Of a stretch of 64,000 nt of DNA, positions 34,146-49,808 are shown piece by piece. Under the pieces are notes generated by a model that saw only the letters and a program-made list of their open reading frames with translations, did not search any database and had not been told where the DNA came from. How positions within the stretch are numbered: the stretch's first letter is position 1; the number at the start of each line of letters is the position of its first letter. Source of the stretch: Candidatus Omnitrophota bacterium (GTDB taxonomy: Bacteria; Omnitrophota; Gorgyraeia; Pluralincolimonadales; Pluralincolimonadaceae); NCBI GenBank assembly GCA_028716565.1, contig JAQUPL010000001.1, positions 409,476 through 473,475 on the forward strand, read 5' to 3'. The position numbers and the translations under genes are program-made.

Positions 34146-34155
34146 GGGCTCCTCG

Positions 34156-36461: not shown

Positions 36462-36471
36462 TTCCGGTATC

Positions 36472-37089
36472 TCAGCCCCTGCAATCCGCCTTTATTACCT
36501 TTGCGGGAACCCCGCAAGCCAGGGCCCCCGGCGGTATATCGCGGTTCACGACTGCGCCGGCGCCTATGACGGCTCCTTTACCTATCGTCACATTGCGCAG
36601 CACGACCGCATTTGCGCCTATCCAGACATCATCCTCCACGACTATCCTGCCTCCGGTATGGCCTTGTTTGTTGATAGGGATATCCTTGCGTCCGTATATG
36701 TGGTTGCTCGCGCGAATGACGACATTCGGCCCGATCGCCACGTTGTCGCCCAGGATTATTTCGCCGTCGTTTGCGGCCCCTATTATCACGTTGCTGTTCA
36801 TGTTGACCCCGTTGCCGATCTTGATGGTCCCGTTATCATTGGCATAAAGGCAGCAGTTGTGCATTATATTCACGCGATCGCCCATAGTGATGCCTTTCGG
36901 GTTCGTGACCCTGCAGCCGTATGAGATAATGAAGGAACGGCACCGGAGGAATTGCGGCGACCAGTATAAGCGCCGCGCCAATATCCCTATCCTTCCCGGA
37001 AGATAAGCGATAAACAACCTCTCGAACCACTCCCTGCACTCGGCGACCACCGTTCCTGCGGCGCGTTTCATGTTTCCTATCAAGCTCAT
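36472..37089 (-). CDS. hexapeptide-repeat (left-handed beta-helix) sugar O/N-acetyltransferase (WcaF/WbbJ-like)
   Basis: Tandem hexapeptide repeats IGNGVNMNSNVIIGAANDGEIILGDNVAIGPNVVI...IGANAVV. Confidence 0.7.
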   Translation of the reverse strand: MSLIGNMKRAAGTVVAECREWFERLFIAYLPGRIGILARRLYWSPQFLRCRSFIISYGCRVTNPKGITMGDRVNIMHNCCLYANDNGTIKIGNGVNMNSNVIIGAANDGEIILGDNVAIGPNVVIRASNHIYGRKDIPINKQGHTGGRIVVEDDVWIGANAVVLRNVTIGKGAVIGAGAVVNRDIPPGALACGVPAKVIKADCRG

Positions 37090-38078
37090 GACAAGGGCCC
37101 TTTCTTCCTGGCTATTATCCGCATATGGGAACTGAGATCGTTACTTGCGATCCAATCCTGCAACCCTTCCTTGCACACGTCAGTGCCGGAACGCGCTACC
37201 ATCTCCCATAGCCTGCCGGCTTTTACGCCTTCATCCTTTATCATCCCTTCGACTATATCCCAGTCAAGCTTGCCCGGCGTCGAGACCTCTTCCGCCTCGA
37301 AACCGATCCTCTCCATCAAATATCTCAATGAATGGGGATTAAAGAAATTAAGGTGGTGGGGCGGCGAAATACTCTTTGACTTTTCCCATAACAGCAGTAT
37401 GTCAAAGCCCATCCCGTTCAAGGTGGTCGCGAACAGCCGTCCGCCCGGCTTCAAGAGCGAGTGGGCCTTCTTGAAAAAGGAAAACGGGTCATGCAGGTGC
37501 TCGGCCAGTTCAAAAATGCTGAGCACATCGAATGAGCCGTCCAGGCCGGTTATATCTTCCATGCATGCGCATTCCACCTCAAGGCCGTTCTTTTTGCAGA
37601 TATCGGCCATTTCCAATGACGGCTCTACCGCAATATACTTGTTCCCGGAGGCAATATCCCTCAATTCTTCAAGGAAGATCCCGAACCCGGCCCCTATGTC
37701 CCCTATGACAAGCTCCCCGCTTTTACCGAGCATCTTGGCCAGATATTCCGCCCTCGGCCTGAATATCTTTTCCCTCCTGGCCGCGGCTACCGGCTTAAAG
37801 AACTCGTTTACCCAATAACTCGTCGAAGGCGAGTTTGAGTAAAATTCCTTCAATTTATTGAACGGCGGCCTCGGATTCACGAACAGGGTTGAACATTTCT
37901 TGCATGACACATACTTAAAACCCGCCTTTTCAAACTCGAAGGTGTGCTCTGCGCCGCCGCAGGACGGGCACCCGGCCGCGGCAAACGAAGCCGGGTCAAA
38001 GAATTCCCGCGCGTCTTTTTCGACCAACTCGAGATACTTATTGAATGTACTGCGTTTTCTTATATCGTTTTCTTTCAT
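37086..38078 (-). CDS. SAM-dependent methyltransferase with N-terminal Cys4 zinc ribbon (sugar C/O-methyltransferase-like)
   Basis: CPSCGG...CKKCS zinc ribbon, then IGDIGAGFGIF motif I. Confidence 0.6.
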   Translation of the reverse strand: MKENDIRKRSTFNKYLELVEKDAREFFDPASFAAAGCPSCGGAEHTFEFEKAGFKYVSCKKCSTLFVNPRPPFNKLKEFYSNSPSTSYWVNEFFKPVAAARREKIFRPRAEYLAKMLGKSGELVIGDIGAGFGIFLEELRDIASGNKYIAVEPSLEMADICKKNGLEVECACMEDITGLDGSFDVLSIFELAEHLHDPFSFFKKAHSLLKPGGRLFATTLNGMGFDILLLWEKSKSISPPHHLNFFNPHSLRYLMERIGFEAEEVSTPGKLDWDIVEGMIKDEGVKAGRLWEMVARSGTDVCKEGLQDWIASNDLSSHMRIIARKKGPLS

Positions 38079-38088
38079 GGTATCCCGC

Positions 38089-38874
38089 CTAACGGTATCC
38101 CTTCATCAAACGGTCCTTAAGCATCAGGTTCTCGACCTTGCGGAGGTCTTCTTCGGTATCCACGCTGTATGTGTCGTATTTCGTCCGGACCATCTTTACC
38201 TTATAGCCGTGCTCCAGGACCCTGAGCATGTCTACGGATTCCACGACCTCAAGCGGCGTCATCTTCAGCTTATTGAACTTGATGAGGAAATCCCTCCTGA
38301 AAGGGATTATGCAGACCTGCTTATACATCGGGACCTCCTTTGCGCCTTTCTTCCAGGACGGGATAGGCTCACGCGAAAAATACAGGGCCGAACCTTCCAG
38401 GTCCGTCACTACTTTTACCGCATTGGGGTCTCCCTGCTCTTCCTGCGATTTCAGGGGCGCCATAAGGTTGACTATCTGGACGTCCTTATCCTTCAACATC
38501 GGCCTTATCGATTCCTGGATCATCTCGGGATAGATCATGGGCTCATCGCCCTGTATCATGACCACTATGTCCAGCCTCTTTCCGGTCTTCTTCTCTATCT
38601 TCAGCATCGCTTCAGCTGCCCTGTCGGATGCGCGCTCGTGCGTATCTTTGGTCATGACCGCATTCATGCCGTTTTTTTCGCAATACTCCTTTATCTCCTC
38701 ATCGCATGTGGCGATATATACGTCCTTAAGGGACTTCGCCAGCTTACTCCTTAGGTATACATGGCCCACCATCGGGATGCCGCAGATCCCGGCCATCGGT
38801 TTCCCCGGAAAGCGCGATGATGCCATGCGGGCCGGGATGATGCCTGCGATATTGATACTATGTTTTTTGTTCAC
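38089..38874 (-). CDS. kdsB: 3-deoxy-manno-octulosonate cytidylyltransferase (KdsB, CMP-Kdo synthetase) family
   Basis: IIPARMASSRFPGKPM, VVMIQGDEPMI, NAVKVVTDLEGSALYFSREPIP and LRVLEHG track KdsB closely. Confidence 0.7.
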   Translation of the reverse strand: MNKKHSINIAGIIPARMASSRFPGKPMAGICGIPMVGHVYLRSKLAKSLKDVYIATCDEEIKEYCEKNGMNAVMTKDTHERASDRAAEAMLKIEKKTGKRLDIVVMIQGDEPMIYPEMIQESIRPMLKDKDVQIVNLMAPLKSQEEQGDPNAVKVVTDLEGSALYFSREPIPSWKKGAKEVPMYKQVCIIPFRRDFLIKFNKLKMTPLEVVESVDMLRVLEHGYKVKMVRTKYDTYSVDTEEDLRKVENLMLKDRLMKGYR

Positions 38875-39626
38875 CTCAGCTCTCCTGTCACTTCAAGGCA
38901 TTTCCTGCCGAGATACAGGGAATCCAGCCCTACCGCCAGGAATTTATAACCTTTTTGCTTCAATTCCTTTGCCCTTTTTATATCCGGCTCTACCACATGG
39001 AATCCCATCGGCTTCTTCATCTTCCTGCAGACATCCTCATAACGCTTGATCGCTTTTTTGACTTCGGGCCTGTCAAATCGACCGGGATACCCAAGCGAAC
39101 CGGATAGGTCATACGGCCCTATTATCGAGCCGTCGATCCCGTCAACGGCAAGGATCTCCTCCAGGTTATCAACGCTTTCTATGTGTTCTACTTGGGCTAT
39201 GATTATGCTTTTCTCTCGCAGCCATTTCTTGTAACGCTCGAACCCAAAACCGTACCCCTGGGCCCTTGCCAGTCCTACGCCCCTTGTCCCTTTCGGCGGA
39301 TAATTCACCGCCTTTACCGCCGCCTCGGCGTCAAACCTCGTATTTACCATCGGGACTACCACGCCGTGGGCGCCCGCGTCCATCACTCTTTTTATAAGGC
39401 ATGGGTCATTTTCCCCTACCCGGACAAGAGGGACGACCCCGGACAACTCAATGGTCCGGATCAATTCCTGCGCCTCAGGCAAAGTCATGGCGGAGTGCTC
39501 CATATCCACAACAAGCCAGTCGAAGCCCGCCCTTGCCATTATCTCGGCGACGGCGGTATCCCCGATAGTAATCCAGGAACCTACGCTGTATTCATTCCTT
39601 CCCAATTTCTTTTTCAGGTCAACCAT
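38871..39626 (-). CDS. HpcH/HpaI-family class II (metal-dependent) pyruvate aldolase
   Basis: 251 aa (beta/alpha)8 protein with the DWLVVDMEHS, AHGVVVPMV and IAQVEHIESVDNLEEI family signatures. Overlaps the kdsB-like start by 4 nt. Confidence 0.7.
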   Translation of the reverse strand: MVDLKKKLGRNEYSVGSWITIGDTAVAEIMARAGFDWLVVDMEHSAMTLPEAQELIRTIELSGVVPLVRVGENDPCLIKRVMDAGAHGVVVPMVNTRFDAEAAVKAVNYPPKGTRGVGLARAQGYGFGFERYKKWLREKSIIIAQVEHIESVDNLEEILAVDGIDGSIIGPYDLSGSLGYPGRFDRPEVKKAIKRYEDVCRKMKKPMGFHVVEPDIKRAKELKQKGYKFLAVGLDSLYLGRKCLEVTGELR

Positions 39627-41445
39627 TATCGCCTCCCTCTGATTTTTGCCTCGCTATCCTTTTGAATGCCTCGGATCCTTTGGAGAGGTCCGAAAAAGTC
39701 CCTTCATCGACGATTTTCCCGCCGTCAATGACATAAATATGGTCGGCGTGCTCAAGCGTATGCAGCCGGTGCGTAACTATGATGACCGTCATCTTCCTTC
39801 CGAGGTTTTTCAGCGCATTATATACCTTCTCCTCGGTATTGCCGTCCAGCGCCGATGTGGCCTCGTCGAGGACCAGTATCTCCGGGTCCCTGTAGAGCGC
39901 CCTCGCGATGCCTATCCGCTGCTTTTGGCCTCCCGATATCCGCACACCTTTTTCGCCGACATGGGTATCGACCCCTGCGGGCAATTCTTTCACAAAATCT
40001 TCGAGCTGGGAGACCCTGATGACCTGCCGCAGCTTCTCAGCATCGACCTTTTCAGCGGGGACCCCGAATGCGATATTGGACGAGATACTCTCATCGGTAA
40101 GGAATATATTCTGGGGGATATACCCTATCGACCGGCGGTATTGCAGCATATTGCCCTTGTCAAGCGCCTGGTCCCGGTAAAAGATTTTGCCCTGGTCCGC
40201 GCCCAACAGGCCTACAATTATATCTACCAGGGTGCTCTTTCCCGCGCCTGTCTCGCCTGCAATAGCTACCGTGCTGCCCAGTGGGATGGAAATATTCAGG
40301 CCTTTAAAGATGGGCTGGGCCGCGGCCTTGTAGCGGAACGTGACATCATCCAGCCGCAAGGTCCTGGCTCCCGGCCCGGCACGCAGGGCCCTGCTACCGG
40401 CAGGCGCTGCCTCCAAATCTTCGATCTCATCCTTGAGTATTTCATGCACTATATTCAAACTGTTGAAACCGTATTGGAGATAGCTGATGCTTGAATATAT
40501 CTTGGTAAATGACGGAAGGAGCCTTAACGCTGCCACCGCGAGGACAACTAACACCGGTATTACCTCTGCGGGCGTCCTATGCATGTACGAACTGGCCAAT
40601 ATCATGGAAAGTATAAAAGCGAACAATATGAGTTCGAATATGTAACGCGGCAACCCCGAAAGGACCGAGAACTTCACGAACCCGTCCGCATATTTCCTGG
40701 TCACGTCATAATATTTTGATATGAAAAACTGCTGGGCGTTATAAAGTTTTATTTCCTTGATCGCGCCTAAAGATTCTAAAGCCACCTTGAACATCTTTCC
40801 GTTGAATAACTCCCGCTGGCTCGCATACCCATTTATGCGCTTTTTGAAAAAAATGTTCACCCATATGGCAACGATACCCACTACGGAAACAAGTATTACC
40901 ATCAACAGCGGATACAGGGCTAATAAGAACAGGGATATGCCTATGATTATTATGCTCTCCGAGACCACCGAGACGACCGGGTTCAGGAAATAATATACGA
41001 CGTTCGAGACCTCGGTGGAGACGTTCTTAAAGAGTGCGGCTGAATTGCTGTCGAGATAAAATGCGTAAGGTTTGGTCAAATATGCCCTTAAGGTCTCACT
41101 GCTAAGGCGGGAATATATGACTCCCATTACCTTCTGCTGATAGTAGAGCATTGCAGCCGAGTAAAGCGACTTAAATAAGAATATCAGGAATGCTGCGGCG
41201 ACCAGGATGGTAAGGAAAGACACTTCGTCCTTCGCGCCTGACATGACATAAAGGTCCGACAGTATCTTTGAAGAGTGTATCTTCTCCGGCGCAAGGAAGA
41301 GCCCCAGCACAGGGATCAGGATCCCTATGCTGAATATCTCCGATACCGATAATACGCACGCGCCGAGAGACAAGCCTAAAAGCTTCAGCTTCTCGCCCTT
41401 GGTCAGCATCCCCCTTATCTTAGTCAACGATCCTGTCTTTGGCAT
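39619..41445 (-). CDS. ABC transporter, fused permease/ATPase (MsbA/PglK-like exporter)
   Basis: N-terminal 6-TM domain, Walker A GETGAGKST, signature LSGGQKQR and Walker B ILVLDEATSALD. Confidence 0.8.
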   Translation of the reverse strand: MPKTGSLTKIRGMLTKGEKLKLLGLSLGACVLSVSEIFSIGILIPVLGLFLAPEKIHSSKILSDLYVMSGAKDEVSFLTILVAAAFLIFLFKSLYSAAMLYYQQKVMGVIYSRLSSETLRAYLTKPYAFYLDSNSAALFKNVSTEVSNVVYYFLNPVVSVVSESIIIIGISLFLLALYPLLMVILVSVVGIVAIWVNIFFKKRINGYASQRELFNGKMFKVALESLGAIKEIKLYNAQQFFISKYYDVTRKYADGFVKFSVLSGLPRYIFELILFAFILSMILASSYMHRTPAEVIPVLVVLAVAALRLLPSFTKIYSSISYLQYGFNSLNIVHEILKDEIEDLEAAPAGSRALRAGPGARTLRLDDVTFRYKAAAQPIFKGLNISIPLGSTVAIAGETGAGKSTLVDIIVGLLGADQGKIFYRDQALDKGNMLQYRRSIGYIPQNIFLTDESISSNIAFGVPAEKVDAEKLRQVIRVSQLEDFVKELPAGVDTHVGEKGVRISGGQKQRIGIARALYRDPEILVLDEATSALDGNTEEKVYNALKNLGRKMTVIIVTHRLHTLEHADHIYVIDGGKIVDEGTFSDLSKGSEAFKRIARQKSEGGDNG

Positions 41446-41464: not shown

Positions 41465-43327
41465 TTAATTGCGTAGGTATTCGATTATCCTGCTGCCGGC
41501 ATTCCCGTCGAGTTTCCCCATGTATTTGGCCGCGTGTTTCCCGAGGAAATCCTCCAGGAACCGGTTAAGATCTTCAGGGTCATCCAGGTTTTTCATTATG
41601 ATATCCATCAGCTCTTTCCCGGTTGACACCCTTAACACCTCTTCTCCGTTGATCCCGTTTAGCGGCGGGAGCAGGGTTTCGGGGTTGAAATAAGGCTCGA
41701 GGAAGACTGTCGGCACGCCCGCCGCCTGCGCTTCATAAAAACAGCTGGTTACGTTGGAGACAACCAGGTCCATGTCGTACACGACCCTGGAGAAAGGCGT
41801 GTCTTCAATATATACGAACTTCGATGTATCCACCTTGAAAAAATCAAAAAGATATTCAAAATACTTTTTTTCATAACCCGGATGGGGCTTGAAATAGACC
41901 TTCACATTACGGGAATTGAGCTCGCCGAATATAGAGAAGATCTCCTCGTAATACTTTTCCTGGTATGCGAACCGGTCCAAGTGGCTGTAAAAACCGTCCT
42001 CAAAGCTCAGGAACATTACGTTCCTGATCGAACTTACGTGCTTGACCTTGTCGGGGGTATAAATATCCAAAGACGGGTTTCCCAGCGCAACGTACCGGCT
42101 CGTGCCCGTGCCCTGCGAACGGTAGTAACCGGTAAAGAATTCTCCGGAACAGATGACCAGGTCGGACCTGCCCCTGTCGCATACTTTTTGGGCGTGGTTG
42201 CTCCCCTGGATACCGTGGTCTACCCATACTGACATGATGCCTGCCGACCTGCATGCGGCAATGACCGCCTGGAATTGTTCGTCGATCTCTTCAAATATTA
42301 TCATCTTCGAGATACCGAACTGCCTTACCGCTTTTCTCACCTTTCCCGCATACTCCATCAAACCGGGTATCACGCTGCGCACCAGGTCCTTGACCGCGGG
42401 GTAATATAAGAAACGGTAGTCTATGCCGTTGAATACAAAAAAGCCGTCGAGATATGCTCCTGCCCCTTCAACCAGGTATTTATTTTCGATCGACTCCAGA
42501 AATCTTCTTTCATCTTTATCAAGATTATATGAAACATCGTCGAACTGGAGAAAACGCGGATTCAGGAAACGGCGCGGGTTTAATACGTTCGAGCCGGACC
42601 CGCTAACTATGAACTTATCCGTCATGTGTTCCAGGATGCTGTTTATATTAAAATAGGAAAAGAAATATATGTTACCGCGTGACCCGGTTAGCGCGCTAAT
42701 GAGCGCGCTAACTTCTATCAACATGCCTTTTACGGCATCCTTTAGGCCGCGTACCAGAGTCTTACGGCTGCCTGCCTGCTTAAAAGATACGCATAGGGAC
42801 GGGATGTGAGTGGCCGGGACGATCGGGACGCATTCGCGTTCCAACTGCCTGCACACCTGCTCGACAAGGCGCACTTTATTAAAGAACCTTCCCTTGTCAT
42901 CGCCGCGAAGATAGAAACTGTTACTTGAAACAGAAAGGTCAAAGTAGACCTTTTGCGCTTCCGGCCAGCGCCTTATCGCTTTCCGGACGGCTTCACCGTA
43001 CTTCAGCAAGACCGTTAACATGTATTTCCGTGAAAATGTGATCCTTGCCATATCCCCGTAAGATATCCCCCCGTAGACGGAATGGTCTGTTCCGTCCCTC
43101 CGATACCAATCAAGCGCGAAATGGTCCGTGGCCGAATGGAGCGACTTATAATCAGCCGGGGTGAACAGGTCTTCGATAAAATAAAAAATATGCTTCCCGC
43201 CTTCTCTCTTCAGGCGCAGGTAGGCCAGGTAGTTGAAGCAGACCGTCACGTCGCTGCCCTCACGATATGCTGCGGACCCTTTGAAGGAATCTAGGGTGCG
43301 GTCATTTTCGACAAGGAACAAGTTCAT
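41465..43327 (-). CDS. hypothetical GT-B-like protein with KPHP motif (TagF or KpsC/KpsS-like), paralogous in layout to 29278..31005
   Basis: 620 aa. VYFKPHPGYEKKY followed by LVVSNVTSCFYEAQAAGVPTVFL. Confidence 0.35.
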   Translation of the reverse strand: MNLFLVENDRTLDSFKGSAAYREGSDVTVCFNYLAYLRLKREGGKHIFYFIEDLFTPADYKSLHSATDHFALDWYRRDGTDHSVYGGISYGDMARITFSRKYMLTVLLKYGEAVRKAIRRWPEAQKVYFDLSVSSNSFYLRGDDKGRFFNKVRLVEQVCRQLERECVPIVPATHIPSLCVSFKQAGSRKTLVRGLKDAVKGMLIEVSALISALTGSRGNIYFFSYFNINSILEHMTDKFIVSGSGSNVLNPRRFLNPRFLQFDDVSYNLDKDERRFLESIENKYLVEGAGAYLDGFFVFNGIDYRFLYYPAVKDLVRSVIPGLMEYAGKVRKAVRQFGISKMIIFEEIDEQFQAVIAACRSAGIMSVWVDHGIQGSNHAQKVCDRGRSDLVICSGEFFTGYYRSQGTGTSRYVALGNPSLDIYTPDKVKHVSSIRNVMFLSFEDGFYSHLDRFAYQEKYYEEIFSIFGELNSRNVKVYFKPHPGYEKKYFEYLFDFFKVDTSKFVYIEDTPFSRVVYDMDLVVSNVTSCFYEAQAAGVPTVFLEPYFNPETLLPPLNGINGEEVLRVSTGKELMDIIMKNLDDPEDLNRFLEDFLGKHAAKYMGKLDGNAGSRIIEYLRN

Positions 43328-44676
43328 CCGGCTGCGCGCCCGTCTTTATTGGCAAGGAAATATTTTGCGATATGGAGCATCTTATAATCATCATATTTTT
43401 TCGCCGCGACCTGCAAGCCGAAAGGCAATCCGTTCGGGCCCGTAAATGCCGGTATGTTCAAGACAGGGTAACCGAGGAATGTCCAGATCAGGCAGGTATC
43501 CGGCTTTTCCCTCTCGTCGATAAGGGGAGGCTCTCCGGAAGTGGACAGTGTCAACACCGCATCGTATCCCGCCAGTTCCTTCCCTATCCTTGCGCCGATC
43601 CGGACTTGCTCTCCTAACGCATCGGCATATTCGGCGCCTGTGATCCGGTTGCCCCGCTCTATTATCTCATACATCAATTCACTGATAAGCGTGTGCTGTT
43701 TAAACTCATCCTTGAAATAATAGGACAGTGTCTTGTCGTAGATCGTCGAGTGGATGTCATGTATCTTATTAAAATCTGCGGAGGGCTTGATCTTGACAAG
43801 CTCGACCTGCCCCTTCCCCTTCAGGCCGCGGATATACGAATCGAACGCATCCATCGCGTATTTTTCGAACTTATTAAAGACATGTATCCCGCCGGAAATG
43901 AAACCGACTTTGATCTTCCTGGAAAGTCTTATTGGGGAATTCCGGTCAAGGGTCGCGTTGACGAAAGGATAATTGCTCCCCCTCACCCTGATGACGTCAA
44001 AAAGCAGCTTGACGTCATCGACGGTCCTGGCCAGCAATCCGACCGTATCCAATGAATCCGTCGTCTTGAGCATGGCCGTCCTCGGGACCGTCCCGAACGT
44101 CGGCTTAAAACCGTATACCCCGCAATAGCTCGCCGGCCTTATTATCGAACCCGCGGTCTGGGTGCCTAAAGCTAACGGCACCATATACGAAGCGACGGCC
44201 GCAGCCGAACCGCTCGATGAAGTGCCGGGGGAATAACGGGGATCGTGCGGGTTAACCGTCTTATTCTTAGGCAGGTAATGGACTGCGAACTCTGCGCTGA
44301 CGGTCTTGCCCAGGACCAGCCCGTCCTGCATCCGGATAGAATGGACTACCCTTGCGTCGTTGCCGGGCGTAAAACCCTTCCATAAGGGGCTCCCCATAGC
44401 GGTAGGCATATCGCTGGTATTGAATATATCCTTCACTCCTACCGGGACCCCGGCCAATGACCCTAATTCCTTCTTCTTGTCAAGGCGCTTCGCATGCCTT
44501 ATTGCCGATTCCGGGTCTATATATTCCCAGGCCTTGACTACAGGGTCTTTTTCCGAGACCGCTTCCAGACAGTCGCGGCAGGCCTCTTCGACGCTTACTT
44601 TTTTACTCTTGATTTTCTTGATCAGCTCTGTCGCAGAAAGAAGGTTTAATTTCATATTTTTACCTTTTCGTATCAC
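43324..44676 (-). CDS. amidase-signature family enzyme
   Basis: GGSSSGSAAAVAS amidase signature. Confidence 0.7.
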   Translation of the reverse strand: MIRKGKNMKLNLLSATELIKKIKSKKVSVEEACRDCLEAVSEKDPVVKAWEYIDPESAIRHAKRLDKKKELGSLAGVPVGVKDIFNTSDMPTAMGSPLWKGFTPGNDARVVHSIRMQDGLVLGKTVSAEFAVHYLPKNKTVNPHDPRYSPGTSSSGSAAAVASYMVPLALGTQTAGSIIRPASYCGVYGFKPTFGTVPRTAMLKTTDSLDTVGLLARTVDDVKLLFDVIRVRGSNYPFVNATLDRNSPIRLSRKIKVGFISGGIHVFNKFEKYAMDAFDSYIRGLKGKGQVELVKIKPSADFNKIHDIHSTIYDKTLSYYFKDEFKQHTLISELMYEIIERGNRITGAEYADALGEQVRIGARIGKELAGYDAVLTLSTSGEPPLIDEREKPDTCLIWTFLGYPVLNIPAFTGPNGLPFGLQVAAKKYDDYKMLHIAKYFLANKDGRAAG

Positions 44677-45824
44677 GGGAGCAGCTTCGCCTTTTTGTCG
44701 CGCTTATCTTTCAGTATCTTCTCAAACTCCTTTTCGCTGTAACCCGTAATTTTAAGGTAGTAATCGAGCGATTTCGAGGGCCTTTGGGCGTCATGTTTCT
44801 TCGCCAGCTCAAAACCTTCCTCCCGCGTCAATAGCCCGGTGCGGACGTCGATCGAGGCGTGGTCGGTGCCCCTGCCGAATCCCCTCTTGATGAATTTGGA
44901 ATAATCGTGCATCCCTGCCATCCTGCATTCGGCGCTTTTGTATCCCTTGTAAGTCCCCTCGATCTTATCTTCGCGCCAGCCGAAATTGTCGCGGACGAAC
45001 TCTGTCTGTCTTTCGTCGTCCCAGAACATGTAGTCCCCAAGGTAGATACCTACGATGCCCGCCTTCTCGACCTCTTCTTTCGAAGGAAGGACATACCCGA
45101 GGACATCGCTTAAGGATATGTTTTTGTCTACCACCTCTTCCGCGTAGTATCTTGCCGATATCTTGGTGAAATAATCGCGGTCATACGGGATGGGATCGAA
45201 ATACGTAGCGCGGCCGTGATTCTCCCCGCCCGGCTCGCCCCATATCAGCAGCTTTATTTTGTATTTCACCGCTATCTGCAAAGGGAACGCCCCCACGCCG
45301 GCATGGCAATGCCAGCACGTGTCCCCTATAAGCTGCAGGGATTTCTTCGCCAGTTTATTGACCGCCGACCTTTTGGGCGTGAACATGATGTGGTCCACAT
45401 CAAATCTCTCTAGCGCGTTCTCGAGGTTATATTTGCCGGTCTCGCTGTACCAGTTATGGTTGAAGGTGACAGCCAAAGGGTTCAATTTGTATACCTGCGT
45501 CACAACATACAGCTGGAAGGTGCTGTCCTTTCCGCCGCTTATAGGGACGATACAGTCGTAATTGCTCCCGTCCTTTGAACGGTATTTCTCAAGGATCTTC
45601 CTCAGCTTCGCCTCCCTCTCCTTCCAGTTTATGTGTATCTTCTGTTCGGAAGAACGGCAGGGCTGGCAGATACCCATTTCGTCGAATGCCAGGCCTTCGG
45701 CCGTCTCCGGCATGCAGCAGCGGACACAGTATCTTATCTTCCCGTGAAAGAGCGGTTTGCCGTATCCGGCCTTTTTGGCCAACCGTTCGTAACGCGTCTG
45801 CTTAACGCGCTTTTTATCGCCCAT
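44673..45824 (-). CDS. N-acetyl sugar amidotransferase (WbpG/PseA/WbuX family PP-loop ATPase)
   Basis: CxxC zinc ribbon at the N-terminus and CIVPISGGKDST PP-loop. Confidence 0.7.
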   Translation of the reverse strand: MGDKKRVKQTRYERLAKKAGYGKPLFHGKIRYCVRCCMPETAEGLAFDEMGICQPCRSSEQKIHINWKEREAKLRKILEKYRSKDGSNYDCIVPISGGKDSTFQLYVVTQVYKLNPLAVTFNHNWYSETGKYNLENALERFDVDHIMFTPKRSAVNKLAKKSLQLIGDTCWHCHAGVGAFPLQIAVKYKIKLLIWGEPGGENHGRATYFDPIPYDRDYFTKISARYYAEEVVDKNISLSDVLGYVLPSKEEVEKAGIVGIYLGDYMFWDDERQTEFVRDNFGWREDKIEGTYKGYKSAECRMAGMHDYSKFIKRGFGRGTDHASIDVRTGLLTREEGFELAKKHDAQRPSKSLDYYLKITGYSEKEFEKILKDKRDKKAKLLP

Positions 45825-45830: not shown

Positions 45831-46388
45831 TCACCTCGCCTTCTTTCTTCTCATATACTCATCGCGCAATATGCCGTATTCTATGATATCCTGGTAGGCG
45901 CCGTCCTTTAAGAACGCCTGGCGCCTGCGGCCTTCCTTTTTCATCCCCATGTGGGCGGCCAGTCCTTGCATCGCGATATTTTTCTCGTTGGTCCCGCAGT
46001 AGACCCTGTGCAAATTAAGCGCCAGGAAAGCGTGCCGCAATAACAGGCCCGACGCTTCCTTGGCTATTCCCCTGCCCCAATACTTCTTCTCCCCGATGAT
46101 TATGGCAAATTCCCCATTTCTCGCTATCCAGTCGATCCCGTGCAATGCAATATTCCCGATATGCCGGTCGTTCTTTTTGGACACTATCGCGAGCACAAGG
46201 TCAGAGCCGCTGTTATTCACCCTGTCTACGTAACTTTCCGCCTTGGCGGCCGAGTTCGGGAAGCGCCCATGGGCGTTGTTGCGGCATACTTCCCGGTCGT
46301 TAAGCCACTGAGGATAATTGCCTTTAACATCACCCTTCTCAATAGCTCTGAGATAGATCTGTTTTCCTTCCAAAAATACGGATCTCAT
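45831..46388 (-). CDS. GNAT-family N-acetyltransferase
   Basis: RGRGIAKEASGLL acetyl-CoA binding motif; 185 aa. Confidence 0.65.
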   Translation of the reverse strand: MRSVFLEGKQIYLRAIEKGDVKGNYPQWLNDREVCRNNAHGRFPNSAAKAESYVDRVNNSGSDLVLAIVSKKNDRHIGNIALHGIDWIARNGEFAIIIGEKKYWGRGIAKEASGLLLRHAFLALNLHRVYCGTNEKNIAMQGLAAHMGMKKEGRRRQAFLKDGAYQDIIEYGILRDEYMRRKKAR

Positions 46389-47749
46389 GCGCTACTCCTT
46401 CTTTTTAGTTCGGAACGGTTCTCCCAGACTTTTTCGAAGGCTCTCACGACATCATCCAGGTCATTCTTCTTCATCCCGGCATGCATCAGGTCGTTTATAA
46501 AAAGTTCCGACCCGTACATCCGCTCTGCGACAGGACAGGACCCTTTCGAATAATCGGCCTTCCCTTTATAGAACTTCCTGCCAAACGGCAGGCCGGACCT
46601 GCCGTAGGCGATCCTCTTTTGGTACATCGGCTGCATATATAAGGGCCTGACGTATCCGCCCCATATGCGGACGCCAAGGTCTTCGGACTTTTCGGTAGGC
46701 GCAAGCTCGGCGCGGACCGCGTCGAGGAACAAGTCCCGCCCTACGCCTGCGGCCTCTTTATCGAATTTGAACGGTTGTATATAATACGCGTGCTCGCAAT
46801 GCGGCCTCTTGGGCGGGACGACTATCGCCGGTACGGCGCCCAGTTTTGATTCCAGGTACCGGCAATTATTCTGCCGGATCCCCAGCAGGCCCTTAAGCTT
46901 TTTCAACTGGCATATGCTTACCGCCGCTTCAAGCTCGGTCATCCTGAAATTGTAGCCTATCATGTTCACGAGGTTTTTTTGTTTTTTGTCTCCTACGACC
47001 GCTTCGGCGTGGTTACGGATAAGCCGCACCCGGTCGGCCAATTCATCGTTGTCCGTGACTACTATACCGCCTTCCCCACACTGGATATGCTTATGACAAT
47101 TCAAGGAGAATACGCCGATATCGGCCAGGGTCCCTGCGTACTTTCTTTTGTATCTTGCTCCGGGTGCCTGGGCGGCATCCTCTATTACTGCCAGCTTATG
47201 GCGCCGGGCTATCGCATTTATCCTGTCCGCGTCATAGGGTTGGCCGAATATATCGACAACTATTATAGCCCTGGTCCTGGACGTTATGCGCTCTTCCACC
47301 GATACCGGGTCGAGGCAAAAGTAATCTTCCTCTATATCGGCAAAGACCGGGACGCCCTGGAAAATAACGGCCGCCGTGGCCGAGGCTGACATGGTATAGG
47401 GTGAAACTATTACCTCGTCCCCAAGGCTTATCCCCGCTGCGCCTGCCGCGCAATAAAGTCCCGACGTACAGGAATTGACCGCAACAGCGTGCTTCACGCC
47501 GAAGTATTTTGCCCATTCACCTTCAAGCCGGCGCACCCCGGGACCGCCGAAAAAATACTTCTCATCCCATGATCCCAGGAATTCCGAAAGTACCCCGGAA
47601 TCTATGACTCCGCAAAGCGCCTTCTTCTCTTCCTTTCCTACTGTCCTATAAAAAGGAAAAAGCCTCTTGCGGACCGGCTTTCCGCCGTAAATCGCCAATC
47701 TGCTCATCTTCGCCCCTTCCTGGTTAATTCCGCCTTCGCGATCCCGCAA
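46385..47749 (-). CDS. DegT/DnrJ/EryC1/StrS-family PLP-dependent sugar aminotransferase
   Basis: DAAQAPGA...GVFSLNCHKHIQCGEGG with the PLP lysine. Probable true start MSRLAIYGG at about 47710. Confidence 0.8.
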   Translation of the reverse strand: MRDREGGINQEGAKMSRLAIYGGKPVRKRLFPFYRTVGKEEKKALCGVIDSGVLSEFLGSWDEKYFFGGPGVRRLEGEWAKYFGVKHAVAVNSCTSGLYCAAGAAGISLGDEVIVSPYTMSASATAAVIFQGVPVFADIEEDYFCLDPVSVEERITSRTRAIIVVDIFGQPYDADRINAIARRHKLAVIEDAAQAPGARYKRKYAGTLADIGVFSLNCHKHIQCGEGGIVVTDNDELADRVRLIRNHAEAVVGDKKQKNLVNMIGYNFRMTELEAAVSICQLKKLKGLLGIRQNNCRYLESKLGAVPAIVVPPKRPHCEHAYYIQPFKFDKEAAGVGRDLFLDAVRAELAPTEKSEDLGVRIWGGYVRPLYMQPMYQKRIAYGRSGLPFGRKFYKGKADYSKGSCPVAERMYGSELFINDLMHAGMKKNDLDDVVRAFEKVWENRSELKRRSSA

Positions 47750-48837
47750 AATGTCTTGAAAAAATTCTCCCGCGGCATCTCATAGCGTTTCTGGGCAAGC
47801 CGGGCCTTCCTGACGAATTTTTCGTCGGTCAACAGGCTGCGAACCAGGCCCGGGAACTGGGAATACGCGTTCGCCGAAGGGCAGTATCCTGCCATCTTCA
47901 AAAAAGGTATGCCCGGGATATCAACGCCCGGCAGGAAAGATGAGACAAGCCTTCCTCTCATCATCGCCTCGAACAGGGGCGTCGTATTCATGCCCCAGAC
48001 ATAGTCTGAGCTTGCTATCAGTTCGCTGGCATTATATTTTTTCTTCACCATCCTGACGTTGATATTCCCGGCCAGCTTCTCTTTGGCTATACGGCCGTAA
48101 CGCCTGTAAATATCCTCTTTCTCGCCGTTAGGGTGGAACTTTACGATCAGGTTCAGGCTCTTGCCGTATCCGGCGGAAACCTTTGACAGCTCGCCCGCTA
48201 CCCGTTCAAAGATCTTAAATTGGTTGTATTCTACCGGCGGTTCGGTCGGCTCGGCAAGATATAATATTGTCTTTGTGCCCGGATCCAGCGACAACTGCCT
48301 TAGCATACGCTTTCTAATATTGCCAAGGCCTCTCAAAGGGGCTGTTGCCGATGAAAAATACGGGTTCCCTGTGCGGACTATCCTTGCCCGATTGCCGAAA
48401 TATTTGCGGCATAAACCTTCCGCTATGCCGTCGACCACGCAGATCCAGTCGGGGACGCAGGTCTCGCCGGTCTTAGAATAAATGAACCTCTTTTCGAAAT
48501 TTGTCCACCAATCTATGAAAGATACGACCGGAACCCCGCAGGCCTTTCCGGCCTTTATATAATCCCTCTCGAGGTCATCGTTTATGCTCGTGCCGGTCAC
48601 GATCAGGTCCGGCCTTTCGGCCCGGACAAAATCACATATGTACGGATAACCGCTCTGCGCCTGCCTGCGCACGTCTGGTCCGGTGCCCGCTTCTACGGCC
48701 AGGGGAAATCCCGGCCCCCGGGCCGCTACGCAGACATTTGCGCCGAGCTTTTTCAACGGCCGGTACAAGAGCAGCACCGCCTGCGATGCGCCGGGGTCGC
48801 GGATAGCCATTATTATCTTTTTCCCATTTAAATCCAT
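47704..48837 (-). CDS. TagF/Glyphos_transf-like GT-B protein (ILYLAEPT and KFHP motifs)
   Basis: TILYLAEPTEPP resembles the TagF ILYAPTWR block; LIVKFHPNGEK and IASSDYVWGMNTT resemble the HP and DYSS blocks. Confidence 0.4.
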   Translation of the reverse strand: MDLNGKKIIMAIRDPGASQAVLLLYRPLKKLGANVCVAARGPGFPLAVEAGTGPDVRRQAQSGYPYICDFVRAERPDLIVTGTSINDDLERDYIKAGKACGVPVVSFIDWWTNFEKRFIYSKTGETCVPDWICVVDGIAEGLCRKYFGNRARIVRTGNPYFSSATAPLRGLGNIRKRMLRQLSLDPGTKTILYLAEPTEPPVEYNQFKIFERVAGELSKVSAGYGKSLNLIVKFHPNGEKEDIYRRYGRIAKEKLAGNINVRMVKKKYNASELIASSDYVWGMNTTPLFEAMMRGRLVSSFLPGVDIPGIPFLKMAGYCPSANAYSQFPGLVRSLLTDEKFVRKARLAQKRYEMPRENFFKTFCGIAKAELTRKGRR

Positions 48838-49807: not shown

Positions 49808-49808
49808 G

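What the first reader, a model, noticed from the sequence alone, without database searches (positions are those of the whole stretch)
41465..43327. Two large uncharacterised GT-B-like KPHP proteins (also 29278..31005), candidate ulosonic acid or phospho-alcohol transferases
Both are about 600 aa with no confident family, but share a K-P-H-P block followed about 30 aa later by S/T-rich and EA(L/Q)..G(V)(K/P)T blocks. That pattern occurs in TagF-type CDP-glycerol glycerophosphotransferases and in KpsC/KpsS capsule beta-Kdo transferases. Given the KdsB-like gene two genes away, a Kdo-type transferase role is attractive but unproven.
Basis: inference. Interest (0 to 1): 0.6.

Follow-up and report, generated by a model that had tools for sequence, protein, structure and literature searches.

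The report
Two orphan HP-motif sugar-acid glycosyltransferases
Two unnamed ~600-residue proteins in a giant cell-surface sugar gene cluster of an uncultured Omnitrophota bacterium are distantly related glycosyltransferase-fold enzymes, and each most likely attaches the unusual CMP-activated acidic sugar made by its own neighbouring genes; they are useful candidates for a poorly known enzyme class, not a new kind of system.

Summary
Both ORFs are real (A 41465-43327, 620 aa; B 29278-31005, 575 aa). Both carry K-P-H-P followed about 40 aa later by S/T...EA..G..T. Neither reaches any Pfam or NCBIfam threshold. The shared motif reflects ancestry, not chance: profile-profile comparison gives 96% probability, E 5e-9. 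AlphaFold models are confident (pLDDT 89 and 92) and both have a GT-B fold.

Fold and sequence place them about equally far from TarL/TagF, KpsC and UDP-GlcNAc 2-epimerases, so they cannot name the donor. The QXXXD nucleophile that defines KpsC-type retaining transferases is absent. No CDP-alcohol genes occur nearby. Distant relatives of A bridge to the BFO_1060 family, whose Tannerella members are genetically validated nonulosonic acid transferases.

Conserved gene order is the strongest evidence. B ends an ordered module (HpcH aldolase, KdsB-class cytidylyltransferase, methyltransferase, 2-hydroxyacid dehydrogenase, SDR, cyclase, HAD), and a KdsB-like gene lies within 10 kb in 25 of 36 loci. 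A ends a different module (divergent CMP-type cytidylyltransferase, GFO, DegT, GNAT, WbuX, amidase; NeuB nearby in some loci). So the KdsB link belongs to B, not A. In family A the HP histidine is present in 24 of 27 members.

Most likely both are inverting CMP-ulosonic-acid transferases (confidence about 0.6).

The parts
41465..43327 (-). Protein A, 620 aa: N-terminal extension (about residues 1-215, no known family) plus an HP-motif GT-B core. Candidate transferase for the modified nonulosonic acid made by the upstream module.
41879..41890 (-). A: K480-P-H482-P483 motif. Inferred contact with the donor phosphate.
   Evidence: In family A: K/R 27/27, H 24/27, P483 15/27. In 81 superfamily members: K/R 81/81, H 60, R 16, K 2. 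Coordinates verified.
41708..41758 (-). A: S524...E532-A-Q-A-A-G537-V-P539-T block. Inferred S/T phosphate loop and nucleotide-ribose-binding Glu.
   Evidence: E532 25/27; A536, G537 and P539 27/27. S/T527 79/81 and E/Q532 78/81 in the superfamily.
42212..42220 (-). A: invariant D370-H371-G372 after a strand of the N-terminal Rossmann half of the core. Candidate catalytic base, a possible counterpart of the sialyltransferase D/E-D/E-G motif.
   Evidence: 27/27 each. H371 59/81 and G372 75/81 in the superfamily. D370 aligns with invariant D109 of protein C and with the Glu of the epimerase 'HVEAG' motif.
43085..43108 (-). A: W74...D81 signature of the N-terminal extension ('WYRRDGTD').
   Evidence: W74 78/81 and D81 73/81 across the superfamily. 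No Pfam hit for residues 1-215.
29278..31005 (-). Protein B, 575 aa: N-terminal extension (about residues 1-310, no known family) plus an HP-motif GT-B core. Candidate transferase for the KdsB-activated ulosonic acid of the upstream module.
29641..29652 (-). B: K452-P-H454-P455 motif.
   Evidence: H454 54/54, K452 51/54, P455 52/54. Aligns with the KpsC HP motif.
29482..29532 (-). B: T492-S-A-S-T...E500-A...G505-V-K-T block.
   Evidence: E500 54/54, S495 48/54, G505 49/54.
30019..30042 (-). B: F-E323-N324-Q-P-W-E328-K block after the first strand of the core N-half. Candidate acceptor/base site.
   Evidence: E323 and N324 54/54; Q325, P326, W327, E328, K329 at 90% or more.
47704..48837 (-). 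Protein C, 377 aa: core-only paralog of A and B with 'FHP' (H235-P236 invariant) and 'IDWW'. It is either a transferase or a sugar-nucleotide hydrolase/epimerase.
   Evidence: hhalign vs A 85%, E 6e-6; vs B 97%, E 3e-10. NF046086 BFO_1060 E 3.9e-9. CapG 2-epimerase E 1e-3. A C-like gene occurs in 6 of 7 A-family loci.
43324..44676 (-). Amidase-signature enzyme. Its stop codon overlaps A's start codon (ATGA).
   Evidence: PF01425 E 1.8e-71. Junction read. Upstream of A in 7 of 7 loci with enough flank.
44673..45824 (-). WbuX-type N-acetyl-sugar amidotransferase (acetamidino formation).
   Evidence: TIGR03573 346 bits, above the cutoff of 203. 60-75% identical copies next to the amidase in 7 of 7 A-family loci.
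45831..47749 (-). GNAT acyltransferase (45831-46388) and DegT aminotransferase (46385-47749) of the A module.
48845..50588 (-). GFO/IDH/MocA oxidoreductase (48845-49807) and a divergent CMP-sugar-type cytidylyltransferase (49809-50588) of the A module.
   Evidence: PF01408 and PF02348. KdsB models score only 20-46 bits, far below their cutoffs. Conserved with A in 6 of 7 loci.
53928..55001 (-). NeuB/PseI-like nonulosonic acid synthase feeding the A-side pathway.
   Evidence: TIGR03569 292 bits and TIGR03586 224 bits, both below cutoff. By tblastn with the window protein, a NeuB homolog lies within 10 kb of A in L003, L091 and L092 (Pfam NeuB).
38089..39626 (-). KdsB-class cytidylyltransferase (38089-38874) and HpcH/HpaI class II pyruvate aldolase (38871-39626): head of the B module.
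   Evidence: The cytidylyltransferase passes NF009905 (308 bits, cutoff 255), NF003952 and TIGR00466. PF03328 E 3.6e-39. Co-occurs with B-type genes: KdsB-like 25/36, HpcH 10/36 loci.
31012..38078 (-). Rest of the B module: methyltransferase 37086-38078, hexapeptide acyltransferase 36472-37089, unknown 35646-36461, B12-radical SAM 34156-35649, PGDH-like 2-hydroxyacid dehydrogenase 33222-34145, SDR 32308-33225, cyclase/arylformamidase-like 31646-32311, HAD phosphatase 31012-31653.
   Evidence: Co-occurrence with B-type genes: SDR 25, HAD 23, rSAM 22, 2-HADH 20, cyclase 10, MTase 9 of 36 loci.
39619..41445 (-). Fused TMD-NBD ABC exporter of MsbA/PglK type (lipid-linked glycan flippase candidate), 19 nt downstream of A.

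Best explanation
A and B are soluble, cytoplasmic glycosyltransferases with a GT-B core of the 'HP-motif' clan. That clan also holds bacterial sialyl/nonulosonic-acid transferases, TagF/TarL, KpsC/KpsS and UDP-GlcNAc 2-epimerases. A and B are distant paralogs of each other and of a third, core-only protein (C) in the same cluster.

Each sits at the 3' end of its own conserved operon module, and each module makes a CMP-activated acidic keto-sugar. A follows a nonulosonic-acid module: NeuB-like synthase, a divergent CMP-sugar cytidylyltransferase, GFO oxidoreductase, DegT aminotransferase, GNAT, WbuX amidotransferase and an amidase. B follows a different module: HpcH-type pyruvate aldolase, a true KdsB-class cytidylyltransferase, a methyltransferase, a PGDH-like dehydrogenase, an SDR, a cyclase-like hydrolase and a HAD phosphatase.

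The most likely function is that each enzyme moves its module's sugar from CMP onto the growing polyprenyl-phosphate-linked surface glycan. That glycan would then be flipped by the adjacent PglK/MsbA-like ABC exporter and ligated by the Wzy_C-type enzyme.

Inferred chemistry: the K/R-x-H-P loop and the S/T loop hold the CMP phosphate. The conserved Glu (A E532, B E500) holds the ribose. A carboxylate or His in the N-half of the core (A D370/H371; B E323/N324/E328/H346) activates the acceptor hydroxyl for a single-displacement, inverting transfer.

Shown here: the fold, the homology, motif conservation, gene linkage and absence of QXXXD. Inferred: donor identity, acceptor, stereochemistry and residue roles.
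For: Fold: AF2 pLDDT 89.3 / pTM 0.89 for A and 92.2 / 0.92 for B. Foldseek gives 92 and 237 PDB matches at E<=1e-3, all among the listed hits being GT-B enzymes such as TarL, WecB-type epimerases, SdgB, polysialyltransferase 5wcn, WaaA, trehalose-6-P synthases and capsule polymerases.

Homology: A vs B hhalign 96%, E 5e-9. C vs A 85%; C vs B 97%.

Motifs: B H454 and E500 are 54/54. A has K/R480 27/27, H482 24/27, E532 25/27, D370-H371-G372 27/27. In the superfamily, K/R480 is 81/81 and H482 is replaced only by R or K in 18 of the 21 exceptions, which fits a phosphate contact.

Bridge to characterised enzymes: 51 of 81 distant relatives of A match NF046086 BFO_1060 (best E 1.5e-30), 43 match TIGR04396 and 15 match TIGR04326. 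BFO_1060 is the ortholog of Tanf_01245/TFUB4_00887, whose deletion removes the terminal Pse/Leg derivative from the Tannerella O-glycan and which carry D/E-D/E-G and HP motifs (PMC5420450).

Context for B: in 36 loci of at least 12 kb, a KdsB-like gene lies within 10 kb in 25. HAD is present in 23, SDR in 25, 2-HADH in 20 and NeuB in only 3. The order HpcH-KdsB-MTase-2HADH-SDR-cyclase-HAD-B is fixed at 24-54% B identity.

Context for A: amidase and WbuX are upstream in 7 of 7 loci. DegT is present in 7 of 7. The divergent cytidylyltransferase, GFO, GNAT and a C-like gene are each present in 6 of 7. The amidase stop overlaps A's start.

By the scans run here (Pfam lists), A and B are the only module genes with a transferase-type fold, apart from C on the A side.

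Both cytidylyltransferases are PF02348 (CMP-ulosonic type) and one passes the KdsB cutoffs. Ulosonic acids have so far been seen only as CMP conjugates (bioRxiv 10.64898/2026.04.20.719630).

The window also encodes a PF00953 initiating transferase, a Wzy_C ligase and an MsbA/PglK-like exporter. Neither protein has a predicted TM segment.
Against: There is no biochemical evidence, and donor class cannot be read from sequence or fold. The superfamily profile is about equally close to TarL (E 1.2e-7, a CDP-ribitol enzyme), KpsC (E 2.3e-7) and UDP-GlcNAc 2-epimerases (E 3.9e-6). A's top Foldseek hit is TarL. 16 of 81 relatives hit Glyphos_transf and 14 hit Epimerase_2.

A and B themselves score far below the BFO_1060, TIGR04396 and TIGR04326 cutoffs, so the link to validated NulO transferases is transitive.

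In family A the HP histidine is Tyr or Asn in 3 of 27 apparently intact members, one of which sits in a complete operon.

The A module also contains protein C, which could be the actual transferase and would leave A with another role.

The N-terminal 215-310 residues have no assignable function. The co-occurrence counts have only an internal control, not a genome-wide background.
Confidence: 0.6

Rival explanations
1. TagF/TarL-like phosphotransferases. On this view A and/or B transfer an alditol- or sugar-phosphate from a CDP-activated donor and build a phosphodiester-linked (teichoic-acid-like) polymer.
For: TarL is A's best Foldseek hit (E 9e-9) and the best PDB sequence hit of the superfamily profile (E 1.2e-7). 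16 of 81 relatives match PF04464 and 2 match TarB. A has an invariant His (H371) in the N-half, as TagF-type enzymes do. TagF-like capsule polymerases appear among B's Foldseek hits.
Against: Neither A nor B gives any PF04464 hit, even at E<=10. No TagD-type (PF01467), IspD/TarI-type (PF01128) or TarJ-type gene occurs in the 64-kb window. None occurs in the ten Pfam-annotated related loci either, except an HldE-like PF01467+PfkB fusion in L001. The cytidylyltransferases that co-occur are all PF02348, the CMP-ulosonic acid class.
Confidence: 0.13
2. Biosynthetic nucleotide-sugar enzymes rather than transferases. On this view A and/or B are hydrolysing 2-epimerases or nucleotide-sugar hydrolases of the NeuC/LegG/PseG/WecB kind, acting inside the sugar pathway.
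For: UDP-GlcNAc and UDP-ManNAc3NAcA 2-epimerases are among the best Foldseek hits of both models, with TM on target up to 0.65. The superfamily profile aligns over the whole core with a 2-epimerase, matching HP to 'PVHMNP' and VDHG to 'HVEAG'. 14 of 81 relatives hit PF02350. A-family loci lack a recognisable PseG.
Against: No PF02350 hit for A or B at E<=10. The smaller paralog C (377 aa, epimerase-sized, best PDB hit CapG) is a better candidate for that job, and it co-occurs with A. A and B carry large extra N-terminal domains and sit last in their operons, after the cytidylyltransferase. B's module rarely contains a NeuB synthase (3 of 36 loci), so a NeuC/PseG-type step has no obvious place there. 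If A and B were biosynthetic, each module would lack a dedicated transferase.
Confidence: 0.12
3. Retaining KpsC/KpsS-type (GT107, GT99, GT118, GT140-like) ulosonic acid transferases. These use a double-displacement mechanism with a covalent Asp-sugar intermediate.
For: B's family profile matches solved KpsC chains (E 0.0018-0.043) and the superfamily profile matches KpsC at E 2.3e-7, in both cases over the HP...E...G block. 3 of 81 relatives hit PF05159 and 1 hits KpsS. CMP-Kdo-type donors fit B's context.
Against: The defining QXXXD motif (PMC12887879) is not conserved anywhere in family A, family B or the superfamily. In the transitive alignment the KpsC 'QTYGD' loop falls on non-acidic, unconserved positions. 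No PF05159 hit for A or B.
Confidence: 0.07

Closest known systems
Tannerella forsythia Tanf_01245 / TFUB4_00887 / BFO_1060 (NCBIfam NF046086), the Pse- or Leg-derivative transferases of the general O-glycosylation system (PMC5420450)
   Same: GT-B/TagB-like prediction and an HP motif in the conserved C-terminal half. They are encoded directly beside a CMP-nonulosonic acid biosynthesis locus. 51 of 81 distant relatives of A hit this model (best E 1.5e-30), and paralog C hits it at E 3.9e-9.
   Different: They are about 445 aa, against 575-620 aa here, and lack the N-terminal extensions of A and B. A scores only 12 bits (cutoff 200) and B does not hit at all. A has D-H-G where the sialyltransferase motif is D/E-D/E-G. 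B's linked sugar pathway is KdsB/aldolase-based, not NeuB-based.
NCBIfam TIGR04326 (LIC13510 family) and TIGR04396 'surface carbohydrate biosynthesis proteins' (uncharacterised)
   Same: Similar length (model lengths 602 and 427), the same C-terminal HP...E...G region, and occurrence in surface-glycan loci. B is nearest to TIGR04326 (E 6e-14) and A to TIGR04396 (E 7e-5). Relatives of A hit both families.
   Different: Both proteins are far below the curated cutoffs (51 bits vs 250; 22 bits vs 125), so they are relatives and not members. No function is known for these families, so they add no mechanism.
KpsC / KpsS beta-Kdo transferases (GT107; PDB 6mgb, 8fuw)
   Same: They use CMP-activated ulosonic acid donors. 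The HP...E...G nucleotide-binding block is alignable. B is genetically tied to a KdsB-class CMP-Kdo-type synthetase.
   Different: The QXXXD nucleophile motif is absent. There is no PF05159 match. The similarity is confined to about 70-125 residues. The architecture also differs: KpsC has two tandem GT107 modules, whereas A and B have one core plus an unrelated N-terminal domain.
TagF / TarL CDP-alditol phosphotransferases (PF04464; PDB 8va1)
   Same: Best structural and PDB-sequence neighbour of A and its superfamily. They have an N-terminal accessory domain plus a GT-B core, an HP-type His in the C-half and a His in the N-half.
   Different: No PF04464 match for A or B. No CDP-glycerol or CDP-ribitol supply genes are nearby. 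The linked cytidylyltransferases are of the CMP-ulosonic acid class.
Bacterial GT-B sialyltransferases, e.g. polysialyltransferase GT38 (PF07388; PDB 5wcn)
   Same: CMP-nonulosonic acid donor, HP motif, and an inverting mechanism with a carboxylate base in the N-half. A gives a sub-threshold PF07388 hit across the HP motif (E 0.007), and 5wcn is among A's Foldseek hits.
   Different: The PF07388 score is below the Pfam gathering score (16.4 bits vs 23.3). Overall identity is about 11%. These enzymes have no counterpart of the N-terminal extension.

Membership tests
HP-motif GT-B clan (sialyl/NulO transferases, TagF, KpsC/S, Epimerase_2) | Two-Rossmann GT-B fold | tested here: met
   AF2 pLDDT 89.3 and 92.2. 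Foldseek probability 1.0 to numerous GT-B structures, with 92 and 237 hits at E<=1e-3.
HP-motif GT-B clan (sialyl/NulO transferases, TagF, KpsC/S, Epimerase_2) | Conserved His-Pro after the second strand of the C-terminal domain, followed by an S/T loop and a Glu-containing helix | tested here: met
   B: H454 54/54, P455 52/54, E500 54/54. A: H482 24/27, P483 15/27, E532 25/27. The block aligns with the HP motifs of KpsC and TarL and with the epimerase His.
BFO_1060 / Tanf_01245 nonulosonic acid transferases (NF046086) | Score above the curated NCBIfam cutoff (200 bits) | tested here: not met
   A 12 bits (E 0.082); B no hit. Paralog C 36 bits. Only distant relatives of A score up to E 1.5e-30.
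BFO_1060 / Tanf_01245 nonulosonic acid transferases (NF046086) | D/E-D/E-G motif plus HP motif (PMC5420450) | tested here: inconclusive
BFO_1060 / Tanf_01245 nonulosonic acid transferases (NF046086) | Encoded next to a CMP-nonulosonic acid biosynthesis locus | tested here: met
   Met for A: NeuB-like synthase, PF02348 cytidylyltransferase and PseC/PseG-like genes lie upstream in the window, and the cytidylyltransferase/DegT/GNAT/WbuX/amidase set is conserved in 6-7 of 7 related loci, with a NeuB homolog in 3 of them. For B the linked locus is KdsB/aldolase-type instead.
KpsC/KpsS GT107 (and GT99/GT118/GT140 retaining ulosonic acid transferases) | QXXXD motif with a nucleophilic Asp (PMC12887879) | tested here: not met
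   No column pair with Q and D/E at +4 reaches 50% in B or the superfamily. A has only a weak, non-equivalent 'QKVCD' at residue 380 (D 44%).
KpsC/KpsS GT107 (and GT99/GT118/GT140 retaining ulosonic acid transferases) | Match to Pfam PF05159 Capsule_synth above its gathering score | tested here: not met
   No PF05159 hit for A or B at E<=10. Only local PDB-profile matches exist: E 0.0018 for B and E 2.3e-7 for the superfamily.
TagF/TarL CDP-alditol phosphotransferases (PF04464) | Match to Pfam PF04464 Glyphos_transf above its gathering score | tested here: not met
   No PF04464 hit for A or B at E<=10. 16 of 81 distant relatives hit it at E<=1e-3.
TagF/TarL CDP-alditol phosphotransferases (PF04464) | CDP-glycerol/ribitol donor, normally supplied by a nearby TagD or TarI/TarJ gene | tested here: not met
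   All sizeable ORFs of the window were scanned and none is TagD- or IspD-type. Ten Pfam-annotated related loci show only PF02348 cytidylyltransferases plus one HldE-like fusion. Actual donor use is not testable here.
TIGR04326 (LIC13510) / TIGR04396 surface carbohydrate biosynthesis proteins | Score above the curated NCBIfam cutoff | tested here: not met
   B vs TIGR04326: 51.3 bits, cutoff 250. A vs TIGR04396: 22.2 bits, cutoff 125.
UDP-GlcNAc 2-epimerase family (PF02350) | Match to the Pfam model above threshold | tested here: not met
   No PF02350 hit for A or B at E<=10. Fold-level similarity only.
Polysialyltransferase GT38 (PF07388) | Match to the Pfam model above its gathering score | tested here: not met
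   A: 16.4 bits vs cutoff 23.3, covering only the 56 residues around HP. B: no hit.
Any CMP-ulosonic acid glycosyltransferase | Transfer of sugar from a CMP donor to an acceptor | not testable with these tools
   Requires enzyme assays or genetics. Only genomic linkage is available.

The most novel reading that the evidence does not exclude
The B module may be an undescribed route to a CMP-activated 3-deoxy-2-ulosonic acid. In this route the carbon skeleton would be made by a class II pyruvate aldolase (HpcH/HpaI type) rather than by a PEP-dependent KdsA/NeuB-type synthase. The sugar would then be tailored (methyltransferase, PGDH-like dehydrogenase, SDR, HAD, cyclase-like hydrolase, B12-radical SAM) and activated by a dedicated KdsB paralog. 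[quoted passage not shown] In parallel, A would found a new family of nonulosonic-acid transferases with a novel conserved N-terminal domain (W74/D81 signature).
Probability: 0.3. Interest if true: 0.7.

Novelty: new variant of a known kind. Interest (0 to 1): 0.45.

Why it matters
Very few transferases for bacterial nonulosonic and other ulosonic acids are known, although these sugars are widespread surface and virulence determinants. The literature itself calls knowledge of these transferases scarce (PMC5420450). This work gives two uncharacterised protein families a testable assignment. Each has confident structural models, named candidate catalytic residues and a strongly conserved partner pathway. 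For B, the conserved pairing with a pyruvate aldolase and a dedicated KdsB paralog points to a possibly new ulosonic acid pathway found in many environmental metagenomes. If confirmed, the enzymes would add new CAZy-type families, tools for chemoenzymatic synthesis of rare sugar acids, and better annotation of glycan loci in candidate phyla such as Omnitrophota.

Tried and rejected
1. Direct family assignment failed. Pfam and NCBIfam scans of A and B gave only sub-threshold hits. Single-family profiles gave nothing significant against PDB sequences for A and only a weak KpsC hit for B.

3. A possible fourth member at 11351-12481(+), picked up by the superfamily HMM (E 2e-7), was rejected. It is an ordinary GT4 enzyme without an HP motif.

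4. The N-terminal extensions of A and B were tested for a relationship to each other, prompted by the shared Trp near residue 75. hhalign probability was below 1%, so the idea was rejected. Neither extension has a Pfam match.

5. No QXXXD motif was found.

6. A species-representative genome scan for family A returned only 2 loci (a Syntrophales MAG and an Omnitrophota MAG). The method is pattern-based, so this shows rarity but does not measure it.

7. Literature searches found nothing for LIC12162, LIC13510 or the TIGR numbers (one irrelevant hit). Searches for Omnitrophota plus nonulosonic and for HpcH aldolase plus cytidylyltransferase or ulosonic acid found nothing describing these proteins or the aldolase module.

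8. The idea that the KdsB-like gene serves A was rejected. In A-family loci a KdsB/HpcH pair is present in only about half the cases, and always downstream. With B-type genes it is upstream, on the same strand and in a fixed order.

Full report
**What is there.** The window is a one-strand array of surface-glycan genes; only one gene, a GT4 at 11351-12481, lies on the plus strand. The two ORFs of the finding are real. A is 41465-43327 (minus strand, 620 aa) and B is 29278-31005 (minus strand, 575 aa). Both contain K-P-H-P (A 480-483, B 452-455). About 40 residues later both have an S/T-rich stretch and EA..G(V)(P/K)T (A 524-540, B 492-508); these coordinates were re-translated. Neither protein reaches a curated threshold in Pfam-A or NCBIfam. 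A gives sub-threshold hits to polysialyltransferase PF07388 (16.4 bits, cutoff 23.3) and TIGR04396 (22 bits, cutoff 125). B gives sub-threshold hits to TIGR04326 (51 bits, cutoff 250) and DUF6716. The closest database relatives are hypothetical proteins of Candidatus Omnitrophota/Omnitrophica MAGs: 91% identity for A, and 100% for B and C on a 625-kb contig. The window therefore comes from an uncultured Omnitrophota genome.

**Is the shared motif more than chance?** Pairwise BLASTP is only suggestive (27% identity over 78 aa, E 0.039). I built family alignments: 27 sequences for A (A1) and 54 for B (A2). Profile against profile, they match with 96% probability and E 5e-9 over 193 columns that include the HP...E...G region. 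A third protein in the cluster, C (47704-48837, 377 aa, 'VKFHPNG...NTTPLFEAMMRG'), is a core-only paralog. It matches A at 85% (E 6e-6) and B at 97% (E 3e-10).

**Motif conservation.** In family B the histidine is invariant (54/54), as is the downstream Glu E500. K452 and P455 are nearly invariant. A second block, F-E323-N324-Q-P-W-E-K, is invariant or nearly so. In family A the histidine is present in 24 of 27 members (Tyr twice, Asn once), P483 in 15 of 27 and E532 in 25 of 27. The strictly invariant residues are D370-H371-G372, A536-G537 and P539. One of the His-less members (P0006) sits in a complete, intact operon. An exhaustive profile search with A1 found 647 cluster representatives at E<=1e-3, mostly about 600 aa and aligned nearly end to end. 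Across 81 of the distant ones, the basic residue two positions before the His is universal (K/R 81/81). The His is H in 60, R in 16 and K in 2. S/T527 is 79/81 and E/Q532 is 78/81. In the N-terminal extension, W74 (78/81) and D81 (73/81) are nearly universal. Replacement of the His mainly by Arg or Lys fits an electrostatic contact with a donor phosphate.

**Fold.** AlphaFold2 models built from the family alignments are confident: A has pLDDT 89.3 and pTM 0.89, B has pLDDT 92.2 and pTM 0.92. Foldseek against the PDB gives 92 matches for A and 237 for B at E<=1e-3, and the listed hits are GT-B enzymes. A's hits include TarL (8va1, E 9e-9), WecB/NeuC-type 2-epimerases, SdgB, BshA, MurG and polysialyltransferase 5wcn. 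B's hits include trehalose-6-phosphate synthases, 2-epimerases, WaaA and TagF-like capsule polymerases. From the secondary-structure maps, the HP motif follows the second strand of the C-terminal Rossmann half, and the S/T loop and Glu helix follow the fourth strand. This is the usual nucleotide-binding layout (my reading). Neither protein has a hydrophobic segment long enough for a membrane span. The N-terminal extensions (A about 1-215, B about 1-310) have no Pfam match and are not detectably related to each other.

**Which subfamily?** Sequence and fold do not decide the donor class. The superfamily profile hits TarL (E 1.2e-7), KpsC (E 2.3e-7) and a UDP-GlcNAc 2-epimerase (E 3.9e-6) about equally, and the HP histidine aligns with the equivalent His in all three. 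B's own profile weakly hits KpsC (E 0.0018) over the HP...E...G block only. I scanned the 81 distant relatives of A one by one. They match NCBIfam BFO_1060 glycosyltransferase (51 of 81, best E 1.5e-30), TIGR04396 (43) and TIGR04326 (15). Fewer match Glyphos_transf (16), Epimerase_2 (14), Capsule_synth (3) and polysialyltransferase (2). BFO_1060 is the strain-92A2 ortholog of Tanf_01245/TFUB4_00887. Deleting those genes removes the terminal pseudaminic or legionaminic acid derivative from the Tannerella forsythia O-glycan, and the proteins carry D/E-D/E-G and HP motifs typical of bacterial sialyltransferases (PMC5420450). So the nearest relatives with any functional evidence are nonulosonic acid transferases, but the link from A and B to them is transitive.

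**Test of the KpsC idea.** Retaining Kdo and Pse transferases (GT99, GT107, GT140, GT118) are defined by a QXXXD motif whose Asp forms the covalent intermediate (PMC12887879). No such conserved motif exists in family A, family B or the superfamily. In the transitive alignment, the KpsC 'QTYGD' loop falls on unconserved, non-acidic positions. Membership in that mechanistic class therefore fails.

**Test of the TagF idea.** Neither protein gives any PF04464 hit, even at E<=10. I scanned essentially every sizeable ORF of the window. The only cytidylyltransferases are two PF02348 proteins, which is the CMP-ulosonic-acid class. One (38089-38874) passes three KdsB models (for example NF009905, 308 bits against a cutoff of 255). 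The other (49809-50588) is divergent. No TagD-, TarI- or TarJ-type gene is present. The same is true of the ten related loci for which Pfam annotations were returned, apart from an HldE-like fusion in L001.

**Gene context is the most informative evidence.** For B, three contigs carrying relatives at 24-38% identity showed the same neighbours. I then fetched 80 metagenome loci encoding B relatives and searched them with the window's proteins (tblastn, E<=1e-5, at least 50% coverage). In the 36 loci of at least 12 kb, a KdsB-like gene lies within 10 kb in 25. The other counts are SDR 25, HAD 23, B12-radical SAM 22, 2-hydroxyacid dehydrogenase 20, HpcH aldolase 10 and cyclase 10. By contrast, a NeuB-like synthase appears in only 3, PseG-like in 0 and A in 0. 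The order HpcH, KdsB-like, methyltransferase, 2-HADH, SDR, cyclase, HAD, B recurs on one strand in loci such as L011, L017, L034, L069, L081 and L087. This matches the order in the window (38871 down to 29278).

For A, nine loci were available. In the 7 with enough upstream sequence, the amidase and a 60-75% identical WbuX amidotransferase lie directly upstream in 7 of 7. DegT is present in 7 of 7. The divergent cytidylyltransferase, GFO, GNAT and a C-like gene are each present in 6 of 7, and a NeuB homolog lies within 10 kb in three of the loci. In the window the amidase stop codon overlaps A's start codon (ATGA). A KdsB/HpcH pair occurs in only about half of the A loci, and always downstream.

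**Most likely function.** Each module makes a CMP-activated acidic keto-sugar. By the scans run here, A and B are the only module genes with a transferase-type fold, apart from C on the A side. Each is encoded last, after the activating enzyme. The window also contains a polyprenyl-phosphate initiating transferase (PF00953, 2156-3946), a Wzy_C ligase/polymerase (696-2159), several GT2/GT4 enzymes and an MsbA/PglK-like ABC exporter next to A. The best-supported reading is that A transfers a modified nonulosonic acid and B a KdsB-activated 3-deoxy-ulosonic acid onto a lipid-linked glycan in the cytoplasm. The inferred residue roles are as follows. K/R-x-H-P and the S/T loop contact the CMP phosphate. 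The Glu contacts the ribose. D370/H371 in A, or E323/N324/E328/H346 in B, acts as the general base. D370 aligns with invariant D109 of C and with the Glu of the epimerase HVEAG motif. Because the QXXXD nucleophile is absent, an inverting single displacement is more likely than a retaining mechanism. These chemical steps are inference and none is shown. I put about 0.6 on 'CMP-ulosonic acid transferases', 0.13 on TagF-like phosphotransferases, 0.12 on nucleotide-sugar epimerase/hydrolase roles and 0.07 on a KpsC-like retaining mechanism.

**Identity of the sugars (low confidence, inference).** The A side has PseC-, PseG- and NeuB/PseI-like genes, two WbuX amidotransferases with HisH/HisF, and a PIG-L deacetylase plus formyltransferase pair. 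A recent preprint shows that such a pair acts at the CMP-sugar level in another organism (10.64898/2026.04.20.719630). This suggests a pseudaminic/legionaminic-type acid carrying amidino and/or formyl groups. The B side combines a class II pyruvate aldolase with a KdsB paralog, a PGDH-like dehydrogenase and a HAD phosphatase. This suggests a 3-deoxy-2-ulosonic acid built by pyruvate aldol addition. I found no paper describing such a route.

**Novelty and verdict.** The kind of enzyme is known: HP-motif GT-B transferases for CMP-activated sugar acids. These two families are uncharacterised, fall below every curated model, carry distinctive N-terminal extensions, and in B's case are tied to an apparently undescribed sugar pathway. 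I rate the finding as a new variant of a known kind with moderate interest (0.45). GT-B fold and an ulosonic-acid role: yes. KpsC-type membership: no. TagF-type role: unsupported. The KdsB link was assigned to the wrong protein. The HP histidine is not strictly conserved in A.

Noticed in passing
window 47704-48837 (-): A third HP-motif GT-B protein (C, 377 aa, no N-terminal extension) lies between the GFO and DegT genes. It is a paralog of A and B. Its best PDB sequence hit is the 2-epimerase CapG (E 1e-3). A C-like gene recurs in 6 of 7 A-family loci, and those loci lack a PseG-like gene. C may be a sugar-nucleotide hydrolase/epimerase or a second transferase.
   Followed up: partly
window 31012-39626 (-); also L011, L017, L034, L069, L081, L087: An ordered module (HpcH class II pyruvate aldolase, KdsB-class cytidylyltransferase, methyltransferase, PGDH-like dehydrogenase, SDR, cyclase/arylformamidase-like, HAD) is conserved across many metagenome loci. 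It may be an undescribed route to a CMP-activated ulosonic acid. No paper describing it was found.
   Followed up: partly
window 9755-11260, 21045-22436, 22441-23913, 34156-35649 (all -): Four B12-binding radical SAM enzymes sit in one glycan cluster, and a homolog lies within 10 kb of B-type genes in 22 of 36 loci. They may C-methylate or otherwise alter sugar skeletons. A 2026 preprint reports unexplained 'higher-carbon' CMP-ulosonic acids in Magnetospirillum without naming the enzymes responsible.
   Followed up: no
window 43324-45824 (-): An amidase-signature (GatA-like) protein and a WbuX amidotransferase form a tightly conserved pair directly upstream of A. WbuX is 60-75% identical across loci in which A is only 38-51% identical. 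The amidase may supply ammonia to WbuX in place of HisH/HisF. The amidase stop codon overlaps A's start codon (ATGA).
   Followed up: partly
window 50585-52179 (-): A PIG-L-type deacetylase and a formyltransferase lie next to the divergent cytidylyltransferase. The same pairing was recently linked to N-formyl / free-amine CMP-nonulosonic acids in Ca. Kuenenia.
   Followed up: no
window 2156-3946 (-) and 7057-8931 (-): Two unusual fusions. One joins a WecA/MraY-type initiating transferase (PF00953) to a C-terminal CoA_binding_3 domain. The other joins a GT4 glycosyltransferase to a C-terminal DUF218 domain.
   Followed up: no
window 1-64000: Essentially the whole 64 kb is one head-to-tail minus-strand array of about 60 glycan genes with many overlapping stop/start codons. 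The only plus-strand gene is a GT4 at 11351-12481. This is a very large investment in surface glycan chemistry for an Omnitrophota genome.
   Followed up: no
L003 2955-4871; L091 11885-13741: Other large (618-638 aa) proteins matching Pfam PF27878 'PFTS_polysacc' sit beside A-family genes. One A-family member (P0022) carries a precomputed hit to the newer Pfam family PF27859 'LIC12162', which could not be scanned here. These may be further branches of the same uncharacterised superfamily.
   Followed up: no
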